This document shows, piece after piece, positions 47-45,026 of a DNA stretch of 64,000 nucleotides (the first letter of the stretch is position 1; the number at the start of each line of letters is the position of its first letter). A program made the translations under genes and the position numbers. The stretch is from the IMG/VR virus record IMGVR_UViG_3300050147_000079. One strand, given 5' to 3'. The notes beneath the pieces are model-generated. The model worked only from the letters and a program-made list of their open reading frames with translations, ran no database searches and was not told the origin of the DNA. The stretch is from a virus.

Positions 47-496
47 TTACCTTCCTTTGTTTTTCAACATCCGATCAATCTCTCGAGCAACATCTTTGTC
101 GTGTTCGGAGTGACGCTTGTCGCTATGAGATTTGCCCTTTGCAAGTGCAATGTTGACCTTGACGACTCCGTTGTGCCAGACCAAAGAAACGGGGACAATT
201 GTGTACCCCTTCTGATCAATCGACCCAATCAGTCTGTCAATCTCCTTACGCTTTGCTAACAACTTGCGCGTGCGGTCCTTCACAGCGGTGACGTGGGTGC
301 TGGCAGAGTTGAGCGGAGTGATTGTCAACCCCGTCAACCACAACTCTCCGTCGCGGATGATCACATACCCAGCCGGCATTGTCAACCGGTGGTCACGGAT
401 CGACTTGACCTCCCACCCCTCCAACACTATGCCGACTTGGATCACATCACCGATGTGATAATCAAAGCGGGCCTTACGGTTCTCTAGAATCAGCAT
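47..496 (-). CDS. smpB: SsrA-binding protein SmpB (phage-encoded)
   Basis: N-terminal ENRKARFDYHI, GIVLEGWEVKSIR, RTRKLLAKRKEI and KVNIALAKGK motifs and a basic C-terminal tail; 149 aa. Confidence 0.95.
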   Translation of the reverse strand: MLILENRKARFDYHIGDVIQVGIVLEGWEVKSIRDHRLTMPAGYVIIRDGELWLTGLTITPLNSASTHVTAVKDRTRKLLAKRKEIDRLIGSIDQKGYTIVPVSLVWHNGVVKVNIALAKGKSHSDKRHSEHDKDVAREIDRMLKNKGR

Positions 497-2722: not shown

Positions 2723-5700
2723 TCAGTCGCTTTCAGTGCTGAGGTCGCTGCGCGCACCAGCCCAGCCACAATCCAGGCACCTAGCTTTTGCATCATCGTC
2801 ATGCGCCTTGACGCTATGGCAGTAATGGTCGCCGGTGTTCACCATCAGCATTTGCTCAGCGGTAACGGCAACGTCTCGGCTACTGCACTCCGGACACACC
2901 AACCAACGCTCACCGTACGCATTTGTTTGTTCACTCATACAGCTCAGTACTCGATCCCGAGCTCATCCAGCAGGTCACGAGCTGCCTGCACTTTACCGCA
3001 CCACTCACCAATGTCGAAGGCATCGTCGTAGTTGCCGCCGCTGTAGTCGCACGCGTTGAAGTCTTCATTGTCAGAGGCGATCTTCAATGCGGCGAGCTTC
3101 TTTAGCCGCTCCAGCACTTCAACCGCCTTTGCAACAGTAGTGCCTTTGACGAGAGAGCGGACTTGGTCTTCGTTGGTCATGTGATTGTTCTCCAGTTGAA
3201 TCAATGAGGGGATGATACATCAACCCTCACCAATGGTCAACTTAGGTCATCGCACGATCAACGCTTGGTGCAAGCCCAGAACACTTCGTTGATGCCACAC
3301 TTGACGCAATGACCACCTTCGTGTTCGTATCCCTTCAACGGCTTGCTGAAGTCATGGTCGCAGTCCATGCGTTGGTCAAGGAGCTTGTTCAGCTGCACGG
3401 CCGCCTCACGGCGGGCATCTTCAGCAGCATGCACAACCTGTTGTTGCTGGTTGATCTGCTCGAGGAGAGTCATCACTTGCGTCCTTATTGAATCAATGAG
3501 GGGATGATACATCAACCCTCACCGGTGGTCAACGCAGTTGTGCGCAGCGATCAGCAGGCTCAGCGTGCCGCTAGCTGGTCCATCACCTTTCGCTGTACAA
3601 TCGCATACGCATTGGTGCGGGACATGTCGACTTCCTTCTTAGCGGCGTGCCATGCACTACGAACAGCGGCGACGCTGACACCAGCCTTGCGAGCCATCGT
3701 CTCGAACCTATCAACCTTACGCTTCTTAGGAGCCGCGGGGGCTGGGGCTCCCTCCCGATCGCCGCTAACGTACGGGTCACTGCGCTTCATTGCGCCTTCG
3801 AACAGGTCTGCTACTTTCATTGAAGTGGTCTCCTTGACTGTATCCCGCTATTTACGGGATAGTCACCGGAGATCACTTCACACGTGCAAAGTACACGATC
3901 ACGTATCGGTAACCAGAACCAACAAACCGGACATCATACGCAACAACCTTCCAGCCGCTTGGAGCGATGGAGCCTAGTTCACGCCAAGCGTTTTCGCCCG
4001 TCGTTGGGTGAGTGCAATCACCCTCCTTCGCGCGGAATTCGCGAAGGCAGACTAGGATCATGCCGTCTACCGATATCGCATTGCGTTCCGAGTGGAACAT
4101 CATCATGCGTGGCATGGCGCCGTAGTCAACCACAGCACTTGTCTGAGCGGACAGTACTTCGACTTTGGTTGACGAGCTCGTCGTGGCAGCTTGCGCGAAG
4201 CCAGCCAGGGCGAGCATAAGGGAAGCGATCAGCTTGTTCATATACGAACTCCTGAGGTAAAAAGGGGGGATGATAACACCTCCCCCTTCGTTCAGTCAAC
4301 CGAAGTCGAATGCCACCCGAACACGTGCCGTGCCTCGATGGCGAGCGTGCACTCCAGGTCACTGCACGAGCCGTCCAGCGTCTGCTGCCCGCGGATGTAG
4401 CGGATCACCACATTGGCTGTGCGCTCAACAAACGCGCGGAACTCAACGCCGTTCAGGTCGGCGAACTGTTTCACCTGCTCGTTCCACTCGGTGCAGGCGC
4501 CCAGCACCCACCGCCGCACTTGCTTGATCAGCTCGCTGATGTCCATGTTGCTTCTCTCCTTGTTTGACCTTGACCGAAGTATACTTCAGCTCAGCCAACC
4601 AGTCAACCTTGCTCTTCTGCATTGTGCTGGCCCTCAACCCGCGACAGCGTGAACTTCGTTGACCTCTTCGAACCGGCGCTGTGACAGGCAACCGAAGTGC
4701 ACATACACCCCGCCTGCAGGCGACGCCTTGCTCTCTTCGCGGTACTGATCGAACCAGCCAGTGCTGCGCAGTCCGCACAACTCACCACAGCCGGGACACT
4801 CCACCTTCTCATCAGCGGTGACGGGCTGACCGGTGAAGGCGGTGCCGACAAAGACGGGCTGGCTCATGTGTGCTCCTTGGTTGCTATGAGGGGATAATAC
4901 CTCACCCCCACTACTAGGTCAACGCTATCAAGCACCGATCTGATTGACGGCGAGCGTTGCGGCTGCGATGTAGTTGGCCGGCTCGCCACGCAGGTACATG
5001 TCCGTGACGCGGTCGGGGTGCTGCAGACCCATGTAGCGAATGATGCTCTTCAGGCCGCCGCCGGTGTAGGCGGTGCTGATGAAGTGGATCATGTTTGCGA
5101 ACGTGTGCATCTTGCGACTCCTGATTGCTTAACCAATGAGGAGAGTATCCCACCCTCCTCGTGTTTGGTCAACTGGTCACGTGTTGTAGATCGTCAGCTC
5201 CCACCCCTGCATGTGCGGGTACTTGTGGATGGACTCGGTGGCCGGCACGAACCGGAACGCTTCACTGGTGGCGTCCGCACGCAGCGCCCACACAACAGCC
5301 CGTCCGGTATTGTGGTTGACGATGCAGATCCCGTCGTCACACGCATCGTCGTAGATGCTCTCGAAGCGGTGGCCTGGCCGAAGCCCGAGGTCGCTGGCGA
5401 ACGCCGAAGCCCTCTTGTCGACCATGTTCCAGCTGACGCGGCTGGCGTCATACGGGTGCATCGTGAGGGTAGCCATCTCAGCTCTCCGGTTGTTGATTAG
5501 GTGAGGAGATGATACCTCGTCCCCTCATCTTGGTCAACGCTCAATACACCGAGCGACCAGCGTATTCGTTGTAGAACGACATCCACTCGATCGCGAACTC
5601 TTCGCCGCTGCCGTCGACCAGCAGGCCGAAACGCTTAGCGTATTCGTACGGACCTTCGCGGTCATACACTTCACGAATCGCCTCAACAGCAGCGTCGGTC

Positions 5701-9819: not shown

Positions 9820-12800
9820 AACAGAAACCGGCTGCTTGGTCAACGTGGGCGGAATTGTCCGCCCATTTCAGTCATCGACAGTTGACAAGACCGCTCGTCT
9901 CAGTTGACAGTGCTTCACCGATCGCTTGAAGCAGTCCACGTTGAATGCGTGCTTGACTTCGACGGTTGCCCGTATAGCGATTGACACGACGACGAAAGTT
10001 CGTCATAGCACGTTGACGTGCAGACGCATTACGCCACGATGACGAGTCATCACTGGCGATCGCCTGCAGCAGTTCAGCGCGAATCGGCTCGATTGTGCCA
10101 CCATACGCCATGATGACGTAGCCGAGAGCCTGCACTTCGATCTCGTCCTCCGTGTCGATCGCCGCGATCGCCTTCTGCACGTAGACGGGATCCTTCAGGC
10201 GTTCAGCGTACAGCTTTACAGCCTTGTTCGCTGCCTTCTTTCCGTCGTTGTCGTAGATGTCATGGAGGAGCTGACCGAGAATCGCCTCCTCCATAGTCAG
10301 TTCGACGTCACACGGCGTATCGCCCTCCATCACACCTTCACCCCACCAACCCACGATTCACCACTCCCTCTTCACGATGATTGCAATCATCATCGCAATG
10401 ACGGGAGAGAACAACAGGGCAACCTTGAGATAGATCATGATGTGTACCGAGAATGTTTACTAGTGGGATTATTGTAACAATCATCCCACTCAGATGGCAA
10501 CGTGGTCAGGTGGACGAATCATCCACTTCGAACACGATCTCCACCCCCTCACCGAACACTTCCTTCGCCCTGTTGACAGCGAATTCCTTGAGGTCGTCCG
10601 TGTCGCCGTTGAACTCACCCTGATGGCGCCCTTCCTTGATCACGTCTTCGTACGCCTTGTCGATCACGGCATCCTGCAGAGCTTCCACCTTGACGTGGAG
10701 GTCAGGATCCTTCCGTTGCACGTCGAAGTCATCGAAACCGTCCTCTTCGCCGTTGAAGTAGCAGAGGACGGAACAGCCGTTGTAATTGGCCTGATATTCG
10801 ATTTTGATCTTGGTCAGCATATTACGTTGCTCCAATGCGTTACGGTGAGGATACTATAACGCATCCTCACCAAGACGGCAACCGTTGACTTCTTAGATGC
10901 TGAGCGTATACGCTTTGCTCAACCGCTCATTCACCTGATCACTGACAACCTTCATGCGAGTGAGACAGCGTTCTTCGCTGACAGTCACCTCGTAGTACTC
11001 CGTCCAGCGCAGGTAGCGTGCGATCTCATGCTGCAACCACCGCTTCTCAGCCAGGTCTTCTGCGATGCGCCGCACTGCTGCTTCGTCGCTGACGTCGATC
11101 AGCTGCGGCAGCCGGTCTTTGATCAGATCGTACATCAGCACGGTCGGTCTCCTCAGAACTCCACCGCAACGTACACGTGGTCGTTGATCGTGACGGCGTA
11201 GCGTGCTTCACCGTCCGAGATCACGTCGAGCTCCTCCTTATCCAGCAGCGCGGTGATCTCTTCCGAGGTGCTCATCACCGTCATATCGTCACCTTCGGAG
11301 TGCTCGTAGACGAACGAGCGAAACGCGTGCAGGTCAGCGGCGCACACGCCAACCAAACCCAACGCGTTGGCCCAGCTGCCGTTGGTGGAGAGGATACAGA
11401 ATTGACTCATGATGTGCCTCAGAGCAGAATGTTTACTAGTGGGATGATTGTAACCCCATCCCGCAGCCGCGTCAACCGAAGTCAGTCTTGCACTTCACAT
11501 TCTCGGATCGTGAACAGCAGCGACCAGTCGTAGAACTCACGACCCTGCTCGTACACATACACCAGCGTCACGGTTGCTGCATCTTCAGGCTCACGCGCGG
11601 GCGATACGGTGTCATACCCGTTGTCTTGCGTGAAGCCGCCGCCGTCGCGCTCTTCGGTGATCATTTTCATCACCGATTCCATCGAGCGGTAGACGCCGAG
11701 ATGTGATTCAACTTCGCCGCCGTTGACGGAGAGAACGAAGACCTTAGCCATGCTGAAACCTCATGTGGCTGTTACTAACTGGTGGGATGATTGTAACATC
11801 ATCCCACCGCAGCGTCAACTGATCACTCGTCAGCGTCGGCGATCATGTTGTCGATGTTCATCTCTTCACGCTCACACTGCACATGCGTGTAGAACGAATT
11901 GTTGGGCCTGTTGTACAGATAGCACCAGCCATCGTCCTCGAACACTTCCCAGCCATCCTTCTCAGCAATCGGCTTGACGTTCGGATCGCGGACGTCAACA
12001 GGGAAGTCGTGGTAGGAGAAATCGTCGTCGTGCTCGCTGATCAGACGCGTGCCGAACGTCTGCTCGAAGTGCTCAACAGCGTCGTCGTTGCCAGAGCCAT
12101 ACGTCGAGACGCAGCCGACGAGATCGTTGTTGAACGAGACCCAGCAGTACGAGCCACCAGCATTAATGCCGACCGACTCTGCGTTCTCGAGGGTGATCTC
12201 AGTATCCTTCATGTCCTCGTCGCTGAGGTACGTCGCGAACTTGGCCAGCACTTGCTGACGATTGATCTGAGTACCACGAGGAAGGATGTAGCAGGTGGAC
12301 ATTTCAGTTCCCGATTGCGTTACAGTGAAGATACTATAACGCAACCTTGCCACAACGTCAACTGGCCAATTGCTTGATGTGCGTAATCAGCTTACCGAGC
12401 GACTTGCGATTCCTGCACACATATTCAGCCACATAATCCACCCAGCCATCATCACAGTACCAAGTTTCAACAGGGGCTTCAGAAATCAGGCGAAGGATGT
12501 TGCGCCGAGCGAGGATAGGCGTGCCCTCAAGGAGCGCTTTGGTCTCCTTGTCCGTCATGCCGTCAGCCGCCTCATACAAGTCGTCAGTGATGCCAGGAAA
12601 TTGGTACCGAGCTTGTCGTCAACCAAGCTCGGTAGCGCGATCAACCAACTGGTCGATGATGTGCTTGACGGTCACGTGTGCTCCAATGCGTTACGGTGAG
12701 GATAGTATCTCATATCCTCACCACAACGTCAACCGAGATACCGGAGGTGCTTCTCCAGGAAAGCGATCGCCTCGTCCAAGGCATCTTCATCCCACTTGTC

Positions 12801-17611: not shown

Positions 17612-18401
17612 TCGTCCCGTTCGTCGTCGCCGATGTCGTCATCCGGCTCCAGATCCGTGTTGTAGAGGTCGTCGTGATTTTCGACGACCAGCTGGATGTC
17701 GTCCCAGTAGACGATCGTGTCCCAGCCCATCGAATCTTCGCTGATATCCATCAGCTGGTCAACGGCACGTTCGGCGTCAGAGCGCGCTTGGTGAGCGGCA
17801 CGCATTTCCTCTTCCGACTCAGCGTCGATGGCGGCTTCGTGCACCGCCGCCATCAGGTCCTTCAGAACGGCGCCGACGCACTCCATCACGGAGCGGCGGT
17901 GGCCGACGAGGCCGACGCACTTACGTCCGCACATGCCGCGGCCGCTGTAATCGCCGCGGAAGCGAACGCCGTCCTGGCCATCTTCAGCGGCGAGCTTCAG
18001 CATTTCAGCGAGGTTGAACTGGCTCATTTGGATTACTCCGGTTGCTTGTGTCAGTGAGGAGATAATACGATATCTCCTCACAAACGTCAACTGGGCGGTC
18101 ACATGACCTTGAAGATCGCTTCGTACACCACTTCGCCGGTGGCGAACGTGAAAGCGCGCACTTCGAAGCCGCCAGTGGAGGACGAGTACCACTCGTCCGT
18201 GTTGCCTTCCGAGTGCATCTTCTCCCAGACAGTGTCGAACAAGCGGTCGACACAGCTCTTCATCTGGTCGATCGTCGGCACTTCATAATTCGTGAAGACC
18301 CACGTCCAGTTGAGGTGCTTCATCACCGATTCGATCTTCTCCCACTGCACGCGGTCCATCAGGCGGCTGCGAGTCTCGGTGTACGAGAGGATGTGGCTCA
18401 T
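17608..18401 (-). CDS. Two hypothetical proteins (17608 to about 18028, 18099-18401)
   Basis: ORFs with SDs; the first has a YSGRGMCGRKCVG motif and an acidic tail. Confidence 0.65.
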
Positions 18402-18450
18402 TTCGGTTGCTCCGAACAGTTGCGATGAGGGGAGTATACATCAAAGAAAA

Positions 18451-18587
18451 GAAGGTGCCACCAGGAGGATTTGCACTTGCCTTGTTTAGTTGGCCAAAGT
18501 AGGCGGCCTTCCGGCGCACTACTCCACTCCAACGCCCTGCACCGCTTTGCGTCGACGCACCGCGGGGAACCGAACAATGGCACCTTC
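18451..18587 (-). ncRNA. Structured RNA unit closed by a 10-bp stem
   Basis: GAAGGTGCCA (18451-18460) pairs perfectly with TGGCACCTTC (18578-18587); no convincing ORF. Confidence 0.45.
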
Positions 18588-18696
18588 ATAAACAGTAAAG
18601 CAATAAGAACGGCGGAGGTGGTTCCAGGCGGCCGCCTGCCACTACGTCACTTTGAGCGCACAAACTCCAGCGCACCGTTTCCCATCACACGCCACA

Positions 18697-18776
18697 CGCC
18701 ACAAGAGGATTCGAACCTCCCAGCTGAGTGCCCCCAGCCTGTGAACCACACCCCGGCGGACCTTTCCGGTGTGACG
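18697..18776 (-). ncRNA. Degenerate or non-canonical tRNA-like element without CCA
   Basis: Acceptor CGTCACA / TGTGGCG and T-arm GGAGG-TTCGAAT-CCTCT; D and anticodon arms are not canonical. Confidence 0.5.
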
Positions 18777-18791
18777 TGATCTTGCATTCTG

Positions 18792-18867
18792 TGGTGCCGG
18801 CTATCTGACTCGAACAGATGACCTACGCTTTACAAGAGCGTTGCTCTACCAACTGAGCTAAGCCGGC
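18792..18867 (-). tRNA. tRNA-Thr(TGT)
   Basis: 76-nt cloverleaf GCCGGCT..AGCCGGC-A-CCA; anticodon arm ACGCT-CTTGTAA-AGCGT. Confidence 0.95.
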
Positions 18868-18877
18868 ACTGATTCAA

Positions 18878-19067
18878 AAGATAGATTGAGTGGCACAACG
18901 CGGTCGCCTGCCGCCAAACCTCACCTGGAATATTCGGATACCACTCCGTGCTACCAGGCCTGTTGGTTTGTCCTCTGACTCAGCTGGGTTGACGGGCCCG
19001 TCTTCCTAGCCGTAGATCCGCCTGATTGTGGTTGCAACCAAGCATCCTGTGCCACTCAATCTATCTT
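18878..19067 (-). ncRNA. 190-nt structured RNA closed by a perfect 20-bp stem
   Basis: 18878-18897 is the exact reverse complement of 19048-19067; internal stems such as CAAACC/GGTTTG and CCTGG/CCAGG. Confidence 0.6.
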
Positions 19068-19076
19068 CGTTACGTC

Positions 19077-19223
19077 TAGTATCCTATGATCATCGCCGTT
19101 CGACAACAGCCACACATGCTTTCAAGAATCACACCCTATCCATTTATGGAATCAGGTGCTATCCGTACCGGCCGGCGATGCCGCCCACATGCAGCCGCCG
19201 ACGGCGATGATCATAGGATACTA
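19077..19223 (-). ncRNA. 147-nt structured RNA closed by a perfect 23-bp stem
   Basis: 19077-19099 is the exact reverse complement of 19201-19223. Confidence 0.6.
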
Positions 19224-19317
19224 ATTTTCAAAGAACGATGCTGGCAGGCCCACACCCGACGCCACCTCCAGCTGGCTTAGCGCTCTCACGCCAGCCCCCA
19301 GACTTCACTACCTTCAC

Positions 19318-19360
19318 ACGGCGAAGCGTATCTTATCTCATCTACGCTTCGCCGTCAACA
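19318..19360 (-). promoter_or_regulatory. Hairpin promoter upstream of the tRNA/ncRNA cluster
   Basis: -35 TTGACG; perfect 13-bp stem 19318-19330 / 19343-19355. Confidence 0.7.
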
Positions 19361-19362
19361 GC

Positions 19363-19803
19363 TCATACTTCCGGCAGAATGTACTCGGTCTCGTACTTCA
19401 CCTCGCCGACCGTCATCCTGACGAGCAGTGGGTTCCTCACGCCCTTCACCGGACGCTGGCGCTGGCGCTGGCGCAGCATGTTGTCAATTGCGTCAGCCAT
19501 CAGGGCGGCCAGACCGTCCGGGTTGAACACGGCGTTGTCGCGGTCGATCTCCTCCGTCTGCAGCTCAACGACGAACTGCAAGCCGTAGCGGCCGTGCAAC
19601 GCATTCGACACGTACTGAACCGGCACGTAGTCGACGATGATCTGCTCATCCCACGCGGTGGTGAACGACACTCGCAGCTCGCCGGTCTCATGGCGGAGCA
19701 TCACCGTGACCGGAGTCCTGGCGATCTGCGCTCGCAGCATTGGTGTGATGTCACCAGCGAAGGACTGCTGGCAGTCCTCGAGACCTTGAAAGAAATGTTC
19801 CAC
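19363..19803 (-). CDS. Hypothetical protein (likely GTG start at 19803)
   Basis: SD GGAG 8 nt upstream of GTG; the 317-aa track ORF extends through a promoter and a leader hairpin. Confidence 0.55.
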   Translation of the reverse strand: MEHFFQGLEDCQQSFAGDITPMLRAQIARTPVTVMLRHETGELRVSFTTAWDEQIIVDYVPVQYVSNALHGRYGLQFVVELQTEEIDRDNAVFNPDGLAALMADAIDNMLRQRQRQRPVKGVRNPLLVRMTVGEVKYETEYILPEV

Positions 19804-19821: not shown

Positions 19822-19915
19822 GACTGCTGATCTCGCTTGGCTAGTCTGGTGCCCTAGCGTTGGTGCGTGCACTACACCTGCATTCGCTTGTATGCTACAA
19901 GCGAGATCAGCAGTC
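19822..19915 (-). ncRNA. 5' leader or sRNA closed by a perfect 18-bp stem, with a competing hairpin
   Basis: 19822-19839 pairs with 19898-19915; alternative stem 19884-19892 / 19896-19904. Confidence 0.5.
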
Positions 19916-20751: not shown

Positions 20752-20856
20752 GATTTGTTTACTAGTGATTAACGATAGGATTACTATAACTGAAATCCTA
20801 TCGTTAATCTAGTAGAGAGCTTACGAAGCGTAAGGTTTCTCTACTAGTGGATCAGC

Positions 20857-22863: not shown

Positions 22864-22957
22864 ACAAAGCTCCGTTGTGGATATGACTCTTCCACTATCC
22901 CACATTCAGCAGGATAGTGGAAGAGGGCGGTTGCCCGCCTCTCTTCGCTGGGCCGAA

Positions 22958-24425: not shown

Positions 24426-24932
24426 TCAGGCAACAGCGTGAAACTGAGCGAAATGCTTCTTGATGATCTTGGCCATCTTCGGAATGTGCTTGCGATTGAA
24501 CGTATCGTTCCAGTTGCCGTGAGTGGCCAGGTGCTGGGCTTCAGCGACGGTGAAACCACTGTTCAGCGGTTGGAACCGCAGGTCATCACCAACAACGTCA
24601 CCGCCGATGATGGTGGCATCTGTGTCGTGCGTGAACAGCTGGTTCCGGTACTTGAACCGCACACCAACGTGCCAGAACGACACCCCGTTGCGTTCCAGTT
24701 CCCGCATCGGGATTTGCAGCGTGCCGAACTGGTGGCGCAAATCCGTCAAGCACGCATCACCACCAGCCACAACTTCAACCGAGACGCCCTTGATCGATTC
24801 CAGCGATCGTGCAATCTCTGCTGCATACACACAGCAGCCGCCGTGGTTGATCGTACAGACCTCGCGCTTGACGTCTGTGCCGATCTGGCGCAGCATGGTC
24901 AGGATGCGTTGTTTCTTGCTCAACATTGGCAT
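24426..24932 (-). CDS. Hypothetical protein
   Basis: INHGGCCVYA and FWHV motifs; hairpin promoter at 24955-24982. Confidence 0.6.
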   Translation of the reverse strand: MPMLSKKQRILTMLRQIGTDVKREVCTINHGGCCVYAAEIARSLESIKGVSVEVVAGGDACLTDLRHQFGTLQIPMRELERNGVSFWHVGVRFKYRNQLFTHDTDATIIGGDVVGDDLRFQPLNSGFTVAEAQHLATHGNWNDTFNRKHIPKMAKIIKKHFAQFHAVA

Positions 24933-44903: not shown

Positions 44904-45026
44904 TGGTGCGCCGGCGAGGATTCGAACCCCGAAACTCATTCAACCTGATCACACGTTCGGATTCCAGTCTAGCGGGGTGGTCTTTGCCCCGACTTCGTGG
45001 TGATGCGAGACCAATCGCACCAGCAC
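44904..45026 (-). ncRNA. 123-nt enlarged tRNA-like RNA with encoded CCA
   Basis: Acceptor GTGCTGG / CCGGCGC-A-CCA; T-arm CGGGG-TTCGAAT-CCTCG; D-like arm TGCGA-TTGGTC-TCGCA; middle segment about 70 nt with no standard anticodon arm. Confidence 0.65.

What the first reader, a model, noticed from the sequence alone, without database searches (positions are those of the whole stretch)
18430..19360. ORF-free 0.9-kb operon of long-stem-closed structured RNAs flanking tRNA-Thr
Seen: downstream of a hairpin promoter (19318-19360) lie, in order, a 147-nt unit closed by a perfect 23-bp stem (19077-19223), a 190-nt unit closed by a perfect 20-bp stem (18878-19067), tRNA-Thr, a tRNA-like element (18697-18776), a GC-rich hairpin unit (about 18607-18681), and a 137-nt unit closed by a 10-bp stem (18451-18587). 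Perfect 20-23 bp closures around branched interiors are very unlikely by chance. Inference: this is a polycistronic precursor processed (by RNase III, P or Z) into unknown RNAs, possibly decoys for host dsRNA-, tRNA- or Ro60-binding defence proteins, or 6S- or Y-like mimics. I cannot assign an Rfam family by eye.
Basis: partly seen in the sequence, partly recalled or inferred. Interest (0 to 1): 0.8.

Follow-up and report, generated by a model that had tools for sequence, protein, structure and literature searches.

The report
Phage tRNA operon with stem-sealed RNAs
An uncultured giant phage from leaf litter carries a 0.96-kb gene-free stretch behind its own promoter that holds one real tRNA, one crippled tRNA look-alike and two folded RNAs each sealed by an exceptionally long perfect helix; they match no known RNA family, and what they do remains unknown.

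Summary
The core observation holds. Window 18402-19362 (minus strand) has no credible ORF. It starts at a sigma-70-type promoter and contains two units closed by perfect stems of 23 bp (19077-19223) and 20 bp (18878-19067). Shuffled copies of the window never exceed 14 bp. Next come tRNA-Thr(UGU) and a tRNA-like acceptor/T-arm minihelix. The "GC-rich hairpin unit" and the 10-bp closure of the last unit are at chance level.

Rfam 15 matches only the tRNA. No MITE copies, tmRNA, retron RT or Ro60 gene were found in the window.

Unit 1 folds far better on the minus strand, and its inner helix has 7 G-U pairs in 15, so it is probably an RNA rather than a DNA palindrome.

The one known relative keeps the promoter and first transcribed bases 55/57 identical, against about 77% in the adjacent gene. 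One natural variant lacks the 3' arm of unit 2.

The best reading is a polycistronic tRNA/ncRNA transcript cut by RNase P, Z and probably III into stable RNAs. It resembles the T4 rnaC/rnaD RNAs and the stem-closed 144-nt RNA of Felix O1-like tRNA operons, but is not homologous to either.

Covariation and expression could not be tested. The scan also noted this same sequence on another record.

The parts
19330..19358 (-). Sigma-70-type early promoter, TTGACG-17-TAAGAT. The inferred transcription start is near 19322.
   Evidence: Consensus scan gives 9/12. The hexamers and spacer are identical in relative L009, where the 57-nt promoter-plus-leader stretch is 55/57 identical against about 77% in the adjacent coding sequence.
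19318..19355 (.). 13-bp perfect palindrome that embraces the promoter. It may act as a terminator or processing hairpin for the upstream gene.
   Evidence: I7. In L009 the only two substitutions fall in the arms and are not compensatory.
19224..19322 (-). G-rich leader of about 95 nt with no defined fold.
   Evidence: z -3.05, but the centroid structure is mostly unpaired. It shows weak similarity to 18600-18690 (z 2.6) with no shared structure.
19077..19223 (-). Unit 1 (147 nt). A perfect 23-bp closing stem is extended by a 15-bp helix with 7 G-U pairs, and is capped by a three-way junction with two hairpins.
   Evidence: MFE is -81.5 on the minus strand and -61.8 on the plus strand. Interior z is -2.59 (minus) against -0.40 (plus).
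18878..19067 (-). Unit 2 (190 nt). A perfect 20-bp closing stem surrounds a five-way junction of four hairpins, one with a D-arm-like loop. It ends 10 nt before the tRNA.
   Evidence: z -7.28. Interior z is -2.16. The natural variant L005 lacks 18880-18918, which is the 3' arm plus the last hairpin.
18792..18867 (-). tRNA-Thr (anticodon UGU) with an encoded CCA.
   Evidence: ARAGORN. Rfam tRNA 72.4 bits.
18697..18776 (-). tRNA-like minihelix: a 7-bp acceptor stem starting C1-G72, a canonical T-arm, no encoded CCA, and remodelled D and anticodon regions. It is probably a degenerate tRNA and a plausible RNase P substrate.
   Evidence: Read from the sequence. Only the T-arm matches tRNA models. 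ARAGORN calls it only at 80-85% thresholds.
18600..18690 (-). GC-rich spacer with a palindromic hairpin module. It is not more structured than shuffled sequence.
   Evidence: z -0.87. The module recurs in unit 2 and in 18451-18587 (local alignment z 3.0-4.5).
18441..18587 (-). Last unit: a 10-bp closure followed by a U-rich tract, with a decayed T-arm-like stretch near its 3' end. It is a weak candidate for the end of the operon or for a read-through region.
   Evidence: I17, D2; closure at chance level. No canonical terminator was found. An RNA-library fragment spans 18397-18532.
18417..18444 (-). Repeated early promoter or 5'-UTR motif of the downstream 100-aa gene.
   Evidence: Similar copies lie near 3200, 3500, 4890 and 10840. 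A promoter-like GTGGCA-17-TATACT lies at 18461-18433.

Best explanation
This is a dedicated early noncoding transcription unit of a jumbo phage (contigs up to 205 kb).

Inferred pathway:
1. Host RNA polymerase starts at the TTGACG-17-TAAGAT promoter and makes a precursor of about 0.9 kb. The precursor may read on into the next gene.
2. The precursor folds into autonomous GC-rich domains joined by short A/U-rich linkers.
3. Host tRNA-processing enzymes (RNase P at the 5' ends, RNase Z, E or exonucleases at the 3' ends) excise tRNA-Thr and cut at the tRNA-like minihelix.
4. The two perfect helices of 20-23 bp (two turns of A-form RNA, the classic RNase III substrate) either are cut by RNase III, as in rRNA operons and T7 early RNAs, or clamp the ends against exonucleases.
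5. Either way, units 1 and 2 would be released as discrete stable RNAs of about 150 and 190 nt.

Shown here: the promoter and its conservation, the lack of coding capacity, the exceptional stems, the strand-specific RNA fold of unit 1, and the tRNA.

Inferred: co-transcription, the cleavage sites, the stability of the products, and any trans-acting function. The most likely functions are protein-binding scaffolds or decoys, as proposed for Y RNAs and for the T4 species 1 and 2 RNAs.
For: - Stems are far beyond chance.
- The whole 887-nt transcript folds with z -6.6, and the units persist as independent domains.
- Unit 1 prefers the minus strand by 19.7 kcal/mol. Control windows give -0.5 +/- 7.5. 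Its inner helix uses 7 G-U pairs, which would be C-A mismatches on the other strand.
- Codon log-odds are negative for all ORFs in the gap, and two gene-calling pipelines call no gene there.
- In the only relative, the promoter plus the first 23 transcribed bases are 55/57 identical, against about 77% in the neighbouring coding sequence.
- The linkers are tight: 9, 10 and 15 nt between unit 1, unit 2, the tRNA and the tRNA-like element.
- Precedents checked here:
  - T4 rnaC and rnaD sit directly after tRNA-Arg, and rnaC has a T-arm plus a terminal stem.
  - Felix O1-like phages keep a 144-nt RNA closed by a covarying 24-bp stem, 4 nt upstream of tRNA-Lys.
  - D. radiodurans Y RNAs with long terminal stems are made as one precursor with tRNA-Asp (PMC4201824).
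Against: - No homologue of units 1 or 2 was found anywhere, so there is no covariation evidence.
- All public copies are identical.
- The outer stems contain no G-U pair at all. That is equally expected for a young DNA-level inverted duplication.
- A natural variant (L005) has lost the 3' arm of unit 2, so that closure is not essential.
- No stable transcript has been shown.
- Three of the flanking 'units' are statistically unremarkable.
- No canonical terminator closes the unit.
Confidence: 0.55

Rival explanations
1. The folded units act only in cis, as processing or insulating cassettes. The long helices keep the tRNA and the neighbouring mRNAs from misfolding and provide RNase III entry sites that set the 5' and 3' ends and the half-life of tRNA-Thr and the downstream early mRNA. 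The excised pieces are by-products with no function of their own.
For: - There is no canonical terminator, and a promoter-like motif overlaps the last unit.
- Other perfect hairpins sit at early gene boundaries in this phage, for example 19822-19915, 20767-20809 and 22887-22925.
- The L005 deletion leaves the tRNA and its leader intact.
Against: - Branched interiors of 100-150 nt are more than a cleavage site needs.
- The interiors of units 1 and 2 are themselves more stable than shuffles (z -2.6 and -2.2).
- The unit has its own conserved promoter.
Confidence: 0.17
2. The stretch is evolutionary debris: a decaying tRNA array in which two recent DNA-level inverted duplications (template switching) happen to have created perfect palindromic arms. 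Nothing except tRNA-Thr is functional.
For: - The tRNA-like element is a degenerate tRNA, and the last unit carries a decayed T-arm copy (D2).
- The outer stems have zero G-U pairs and zero mismatches, as expected for young repeats.
- A deletion variant is tolerated.
- Several segments fold no better than shuffles.
Against: - Phage genomes rarely keep about 0.9 kb of junk behind a conserved promoter.
- Two independent duplications with unrelated arm sequences would have to lie side by side.
- Unit 1 continues into a G-U-rich, strand-specific helix that a DNA duplication does not explain.
- Analogous stem-closed RNAs are conserved with covariation in Felix O1-like phages.
Confidence: 0.15
3. 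Units 1 and 2 are Y-RNA-type partners of a Ro60-like protein encoded elsewhere in the phage genome or in the host. The long helix is the protein-binding site, and the complex remodels host RNA decay or quality control.
For: - Long stems formed by the 5' and 3' ends, tRNA-derived neighbours and co-transcription with a tRNA match the description of Yrn1 and Yrn2 (PMC4201824).
- Felix O1 has the same layout next to a DUF2828/DUF7788 'RNA-binding protein'.
- A model of the Felix O1 144-nt RNA picks unit 1 end to end, at 25.4 bits.
Against: - No Ro60-like gene lies in the 64-kb window, and Y RNAs are normally adjacent to it.
- No YrlA-type T-AS-D module was found by Rfam or by a Felix O1-derived model.
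- The model hit is mostly the stem: the opposite strand scores 17.8 bits, the interior alignment contradicts unit 1's own fold, and the family's conserved 3' hairpin is missing.
Confidence: 0.08
4. The inverted repeats are DNA elements: miniature transposable elements with terminal inverted repeats, or cruciform or recombination sites.
For: Perfect Watson-Crick arms. Unit 1's arms begin and end with TA, as in TA-targeting MITEs.
Against: - There is no second copy of either arm in the window, even with 3 mismatches.
- None was found in IMG/VR.
- One chance-level 20-mer hit occurs in 185,579 species genomes, with no other similarity.
- The two units share no arm sequence.
- Unit 1's fold is strand-asymmetric.
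Confidence: 0.05

Closest known systems
Phage T4 tRNA-cluster stable RNAs rnaC (species 1, 139 nt) and rnaD (species 2, 119 nt)
   Same: They are small noncoding RNAs encoded directly beside tRNA genes in a phage tRNA transcription unit. rnaC has a terminal stem plus a canonical T-arm, like the tRNA-like element here. The T4 record annotates them only as small, stable RNAs.
   Different: No sequence similarity: the phage DNA search returned only tRNA-Thr-type matches. The T4 RNAs lack perfect closing helices of 20-23 bp.
144-nt stem-closed RNA of Felix O1-like (Ounavirinae) tRNA operons. It is unannotated and was flagged earlier in this scan.
   Same: Nearly the same size (144 against 147 nt) and the same closing helix (22-24 against 23 bp around about 100 nt). 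It lies a few nt upstream of a tRNA. Its stem covaries among genera, which shows that such helices are selected at the RNA level. A model of it hits unit 1 end to end.
   Different: The interior architecture differs (four hairpins against two), and the family's conserved 3' hairpin is absent. The score gain over the stem-only control is just 7.6 bits. The Felix O1 neighbours, a YrlA-type RNA and the DUF2828/DUF7788 protein, are missing here.
Bacterial and phage Y RNAs (YrlA, YrlB, Yrn1, Yrn2) bound by Ro60/Rsr
   Same: Long helices formed by the 5' and 3' ends, tRNA-derived modules, and synthesis as a polycistronic precursor with a tRNA (PMC4201824).
   Different: Y RNAs are 80-130 nt and are encoded next to Ro60. 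No Ro60-like gene, no YrlA module and no Rfam match were found here.
RNase III processing helices of rRNA operons and of phage T7 and lambda early transcripts (established knowledge, not tested here)
   Same: Long-range duplexes of about two helical turns bracket a functional RNA and lie next to tRNAs within one precursor.
   Different: Here the bracketed RNAs are only 100-150 nt and of unknown function. Cleavage has not been shown, and the host and its RNase III specificity are unknown.

Membership tests
Any Rfam 15 family | Covariance-model match at or near the gathering score | tested here: not met
   Only tRNA-Thr passes. With permissive filters on 1.2 kb, the next best match is a spurious plant miRNA hairpin (21 bits against a gathering score of 180).
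tRNA (for 18697-18776) | 7-bp acceptor stem and canonical T-arm | tested here: met
   CGUCACA pairs with UGUGGCG, and the T-arm is GGAGG-UUCGAAU-CCUCU. The T-arm alone matches tRNA-type models.
tRNA (for 18697-18776) | D-arm and a 7-nt anticodon loop in a cloverleaf of normal size | tested here: not met
   No Rfam tRNA hit. ARAGORN calls it only at 80-85% thresholds, with an 11-20-nt 'intron' and inconsistent identities.
Y RNA / YrlA | Long helix formed by the 5' and 3' ends | tested here: met
   Units 1 and 2.
Y RNA / YrlA | tRNA-like T-arm, AS stem-loop and D-arm module inside the stem | tested here: not met
   No Rfam hit. The Felix O1-derived model R2 matches only isolated T-arms.
Y RNA / YrlA | Encoded next to a Ro60/TROVE-type protein | tested here: not met
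   The flanking genes have no Pfam or PHROG family. No tblastn match to Felix O1 ORF42 in the window. The large ORFs of the window carry no TROVE or DUF2828 domain. The rest of the >=205-kb genome could not be searched.
Felix O1-type 144-nt tRNA-operon RNA (model R1) | About 145 nt closed by a helix of about 24 bp, immediately upstream of a tRNA | tested here: met
   Unit 1 is 147 nt with a 23-bp helix. Unit 2 ends 10 nt before tRNA-Thr.
Felix O1-type 144-nt tRNA-operon RNA (model R1) | Conserved interior: the invariant AUUCUAGAUU motif and the 3' CAGACC...GGUCUG hairpin | tested here: not met
   Only a 9-of-11 motif match. The 3' hairpin is deleted in the alignment, and the aligned pairs conflict with unit 1's own fold. 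The score is 25.4 bits against 17.8 bits for the stem-only opposite strand.
tmRNA (considered because the phage encodes SmpB) | tRNA-like domain with G3-U70 and CCA, plus a tag reading frame | tested here: not met
   No ARAGORN or Rfam tmRNA in the window at normal thresholds. The minihelix has U3-G70 and no CCA.
RNase III substrate | About 20 bp or more of uninterrupted double-stranded RNA | tested here: met
   23 and 20 Watson-Crick pairs. Actual cleavage is not testable with these tools.
MITE / transposable element | Multiple copies sharing terminal inverted repeats | tested here: not met
Retron msr-msd RNA | Reverse transcriptase gene immediately downstream of the stem-closed RNA | tested here: not met
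   No ORF follows either unit. The next genes are a tRNA and a 100-aa ORFan.

The most novel reading that the evidence does not exclude
Units 1 and 2 are a previously undescribed class of trans-acting phage RNAs. Their perfect two-turn helices titrate or redirect a host double-strand-RNA-binding factor (RNase III, a dsRNA-sensing defence protein or a Ro60-like ring), while the branched heads recruit a second partner. They would work alongside this phage's other translation and RNA-related accessories: SmpB, an RlmN-like methyltransferase and oversized tRNA look-alikes.
Probability: 0.15. Interest if true: 0.8.

Novelty: new variant of a known kind. Interest (0 to 1): 0.5.

Why it matters
Phage tRNA clusters have been known since T4 to carry extra stable RNAs whose role is still unsolved. 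This scan keeps finding unannotated, stem-closed RNA modules in phage tRNA operons and early leaders.

This locus is an unusually clean example. It has its own promoter, two units with record-length perfect helices, a real tRNA and a tRNA remnant, all in a jumbo phage that also encodes SmpB and other RNA-directed functions.

If the units prove to be stable RNAs with partners, they would add a new family to the small list of phage-encoded regulatory or decoy RNAs. They would also give a tractable model for what such tRNA-linked RNAs do.

If they are only processing cassettes, they still show that a phage uses rRNA-operon-style helices to punctuate a tRNA transcript.

Tried and rejected
Searches for homologues (none informative):
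- blastn of the region against 50,697 phage records returned only tRNA-Thr-type matches.
- tblastn and peptide-pattern scans with the flanking ORFs and rIIA found no close relative in INPHARED, IMG/VR or the JGI contigs.
- Exact-pattern scans for the conserved promoter-leader, for a unit 1 arm, for the tRNA-like element and for a unit 2 loop each gave 0 hits.
- Protein searches show that the neighbouring genes are ORFans.
- The only relative (P0003, 72% aa identity) lies on an 858-nt contig that ends 23 nt into the transcript.

Reads:
- Four runs hold only identical, fragmented copies.
- The single RNA run (X24) contributes one 136-nt piece, 18397-18532. It may be DNA carry-over and is not used as evidence.

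The whole genome is not held, so no search for a Ro60 gene or a tmRNA outside the window was possible.

Hypotheses rejected: tmRNA, MITE and retron (see the membership tests).

Paralogy between the leader and the hairpin spacer: weak sequence similarity (z 2.6) but no common structure.

Neighbouring proteins:
- The AlphaFold model of the 146-aa protein was poor (pLDDT 44).
- The 100-aa protein (pLDDT 77) gave only weak RelE/ParE-like and other matches (Foldseek E >=0.18; Z <=4.6). This is inconclusive.

Felix O1-family models: R1's hit on unit 1 is judged an analogue, not a member. R2 gave no hit.

Full report
**Context**

The window is part of an uncultured phage found in leaf-litter and freshwater metagenomes. 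One of its proteins occurs on a contig of 204,883 bp, so it is a jumbo phage. It encodes rIIA, rIIB, a helicase, an AAA ATPase and a full-length SmpB. Its rIIA is at most about 32% identical to that of any cultured phage. No whole genome is held for it. Genes around the finding run on the minus strand.

**The observation**

Between the stop codon of a 146-aa gene (19363) and the start of a 100-aa gene (18401) lie 961 nt. Two independent gene-calling pipelines call nothing there. All ORFs of 40 aa or more in the gap have negative codon log-odds (-0.10 to -0.32). Twenty-seven phage genes give +0.37 +/- 0.12.

The perfect inverted repeats 19077-19099/19201-19223 (23 nt) and 18878-18897/19048-19067 (20 nt) are real. 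They are the two longest long-range repeats in the whole window. In 60 shuffles the longest such repeat was 10-14 nt. As RNA, the minus-strand units fold with z -7.85 and -7.28. They persist as separate domains when the whole 887-nt transcript is folded (z -6.6).

tRNA-Thr(UGU) at 18792-18867 is canonical, with an encoded CCA.

The element 18697-18776 has a 7-bp acceptor stem and a textbook T-arm, but its D and anticodon regions are remodelled. tRNA models match only its T-arm.

The hairpin unit 18600-18690 has z -0.9. The 10-bp closure of 18451-18587 is a length that every shuffled window also reaches, and the interior of that unit has z +0.48.

**RNA or DNA?**

Unit 1 is 19.7 kcal/mol more stable on the minus strand than on the plus strand. 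Ninety-three control windows give -0.5 +/- 7.5. Inside the perfect 23 bp the helix continues for 15 pairs, 7 of them G-U. Its interior has z -2.59 on the minus strand and -0.40 on the plus strand. That points to a transcript from the gene-sense strand rather than a DNA cruciform. Unit 2 is less asymmetric (interior z -2.16 against -1.25).

The arms do not recur anywhere in the window or in IMG/VR. In 185,579 species genomes there is one chance-level 20-mer hit with no flanking similarity. A mobile-element reading is therefore unsupported.

**Transcription signals**

TTGACG-17-TAAGAT lies at 19358-19330, inside a 13-bp palindrome.

The only relative I could find is a protein 72% identical to the upstream gene, on an 858-nt ENA contig. 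There the promoter and the first 23 transcribed bases are 55/57 identical, against about 77% in the adjoining coding sequence. The two changes fall in the palindrome arms and are not compensatory. The promoter and leader are therefore under selection, while the hairpin as such is not demonstrably so.

No canonical terminator ends the unit. The last 10-bp stem is followed by a U-rich tract, then by a motif repeated upstream of several early genes. Read-through into the next gene is possible.

**Variation**

All 24 public contigs carrying the locus are identical, except one JGI contig. That contig has a clean 39-nt deletion of 18880-18918, removing the 3' arm and the last hairpin of unit 2 while leaving the tRNA intact. 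Closure of unit 2 is thus dispensable for propagation. This argues for an accessory role, or for no role.

**Homology**

Rfam 15 gives nothing but the tRNA, even with permissive filters. DNA, protein-anchored and pattern searches in phage, viral and metagenome collections found no second lineage carrying the units. Covariation could not be tested. Weak internal similarities suggest local duplication and decay around the tRNA: a GC-rich palindromic hairpin module shared by unit 2, the spacer and the last unit, and a decayed T-arm copy in the last unit.

**Comparison with known systems**

- T4. T4 encodes rnaC and rnaD directly after tRNA-Arg. rnaC folds with a terminal stem and a canonical T-arm. 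This is a close analogue of the tRNA-like element here and of a second, oversized one at 44904-45026.
- Felix O1, the 144-nt unit. I confirmed a 144-nt unit closed by a 22-24-bp helix, 4 nt upstream of tRNA-Lys. Across five Ounavirinae its closing helix shows compensatory changes.
- Felix O1, the neighbours. Beside that unit lie a permuted tRNA-like (T-arm, stem-loop, D-arm) RNA and a DUF2828/DUF7788 'RNA-binding protein'.
- Model of the 144-nt RNA. It hits unit 1 exactly end to end (25.4 bits). The opposite strand, which has identical arms, scores 17.8 bits. The interior alignment contradicts unit 1's own fold, and the family's conserved 3' hairpin is missing. Unit 1 is a structural analogue, not a demonstrable member.
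- Model of the Felix O1 YrlA-type RNA. It finds nothing here, and the window has no homologue of the Felix O1 protein.
- Y RNAs. As described in PMC4201824, they share the long terminal helix, the tRNA-derived modules and co-transcription with a tRNA. Their defining partner gene is absent from the window.

**Mechanism**

I consider a polycistronic tRNA/ncRNA precursor most likely (0.55). RNase P and 3'-end enzymes would cut at the tRNA and at the minihelix. The two-turn perfect helices would be RNase III sites or end-clamps that yield stable unit 1 and unit 2 RNAs. Whether the RNAs act in trans is open.

Rivals:
- cis-only processing cassettes (0.17)
- debris plus young inverted duplications (0.15)
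- a Y-RNA/Ro60-type system with a distant partner (0.08)
- DNA elements (0.05)

**Verdict**

This is a real, statistically exceptional and unannotated RNA locus. It is a new variant of the long-known but unexplained class of tRNA-linked phage RNAs. Its function is unproven, and neither conservation nor expression could be tested with public data.

Noticed in passing
window 47-496 (-): Full-length phage-encoded SmpB (Pfam 7e-50). ARAGORN and Rfam find no tmRNA in the window.
   Followed up: partly
window 44904-45026 (-): Oversized (123-nt) tRNA-like RNA just upstream of rIIA. It has a 7-bp acceptor stem, a canonical T-arm and an encoded ACCA, but an expanded anticodon region. It resembles T4 rnaC in layout.
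   Followed up: partly
L005 (JGI 3300050554 contig), equivalent to window 18880-18918: Natural 39-nt deletion between TTT(G) microhomologies. It removes the 3' arm of the 20-bp stem and the last hairpin of unit 2. The rest of the 1.2 kb is identical.
   Followed up: yes
window 18417-18444; similar copies near 3193-3223, 3496-3515, 4880-4904 and 10826-10858 (-): Repeated motif TTGATGTAT..CCCCTCAT upstream of several small early genes. It is probably a shared early promoter or 5'-UTR element.
   Followed up: no
window 19822-19839 / 19898-19915: Perfect 18-bp inverted repeat enclosing 58 nt, just upstream of the 146-aa gene. It is the third longest long-range stem in the window and a possible RNase III-type site.
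   Followed up: no
window 19363-19803 (-), residues about 19-68: The 146-aa ORFan shares a segment of about 40 aa (35-40% identity) with a module repeated 4-13 times in giant proteins of 1,000-3,500 aa (P0004-P0009).
   Followed up: no
window 18099-18401 (-): The 100-aa ORFan gives a confident model (pLDDT 77) of helices followed by a three-stranded sheet. It matches RelE/ParE-type toxins and YeeU-type proteins only weakly (Z <=4.6), which is inconclusive.
   Followed up: partly
L012 (Felix O1) 24578-24851: Felix O1-like phages carry a permuted tRNA-like (YrlA-type) RNA and a 144-nt RNA closed by a covarying 24-bp stem. Both lie between tRNA-Asp and tRNA-Lys, downstream of ORF42 (DUF2828/DUF7788). 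Rfam 15 reports neither at E <=0.1.
   Followed up: partly
window 18397-18532: A freshwater metatranscriptome run (X24) holds one adapter-flanked 136-nt insert identical to this stretch. It spans the last unit and the start codon of the next gene. It could be read-through RNA or DNA carry-over.
   Followed up: partly
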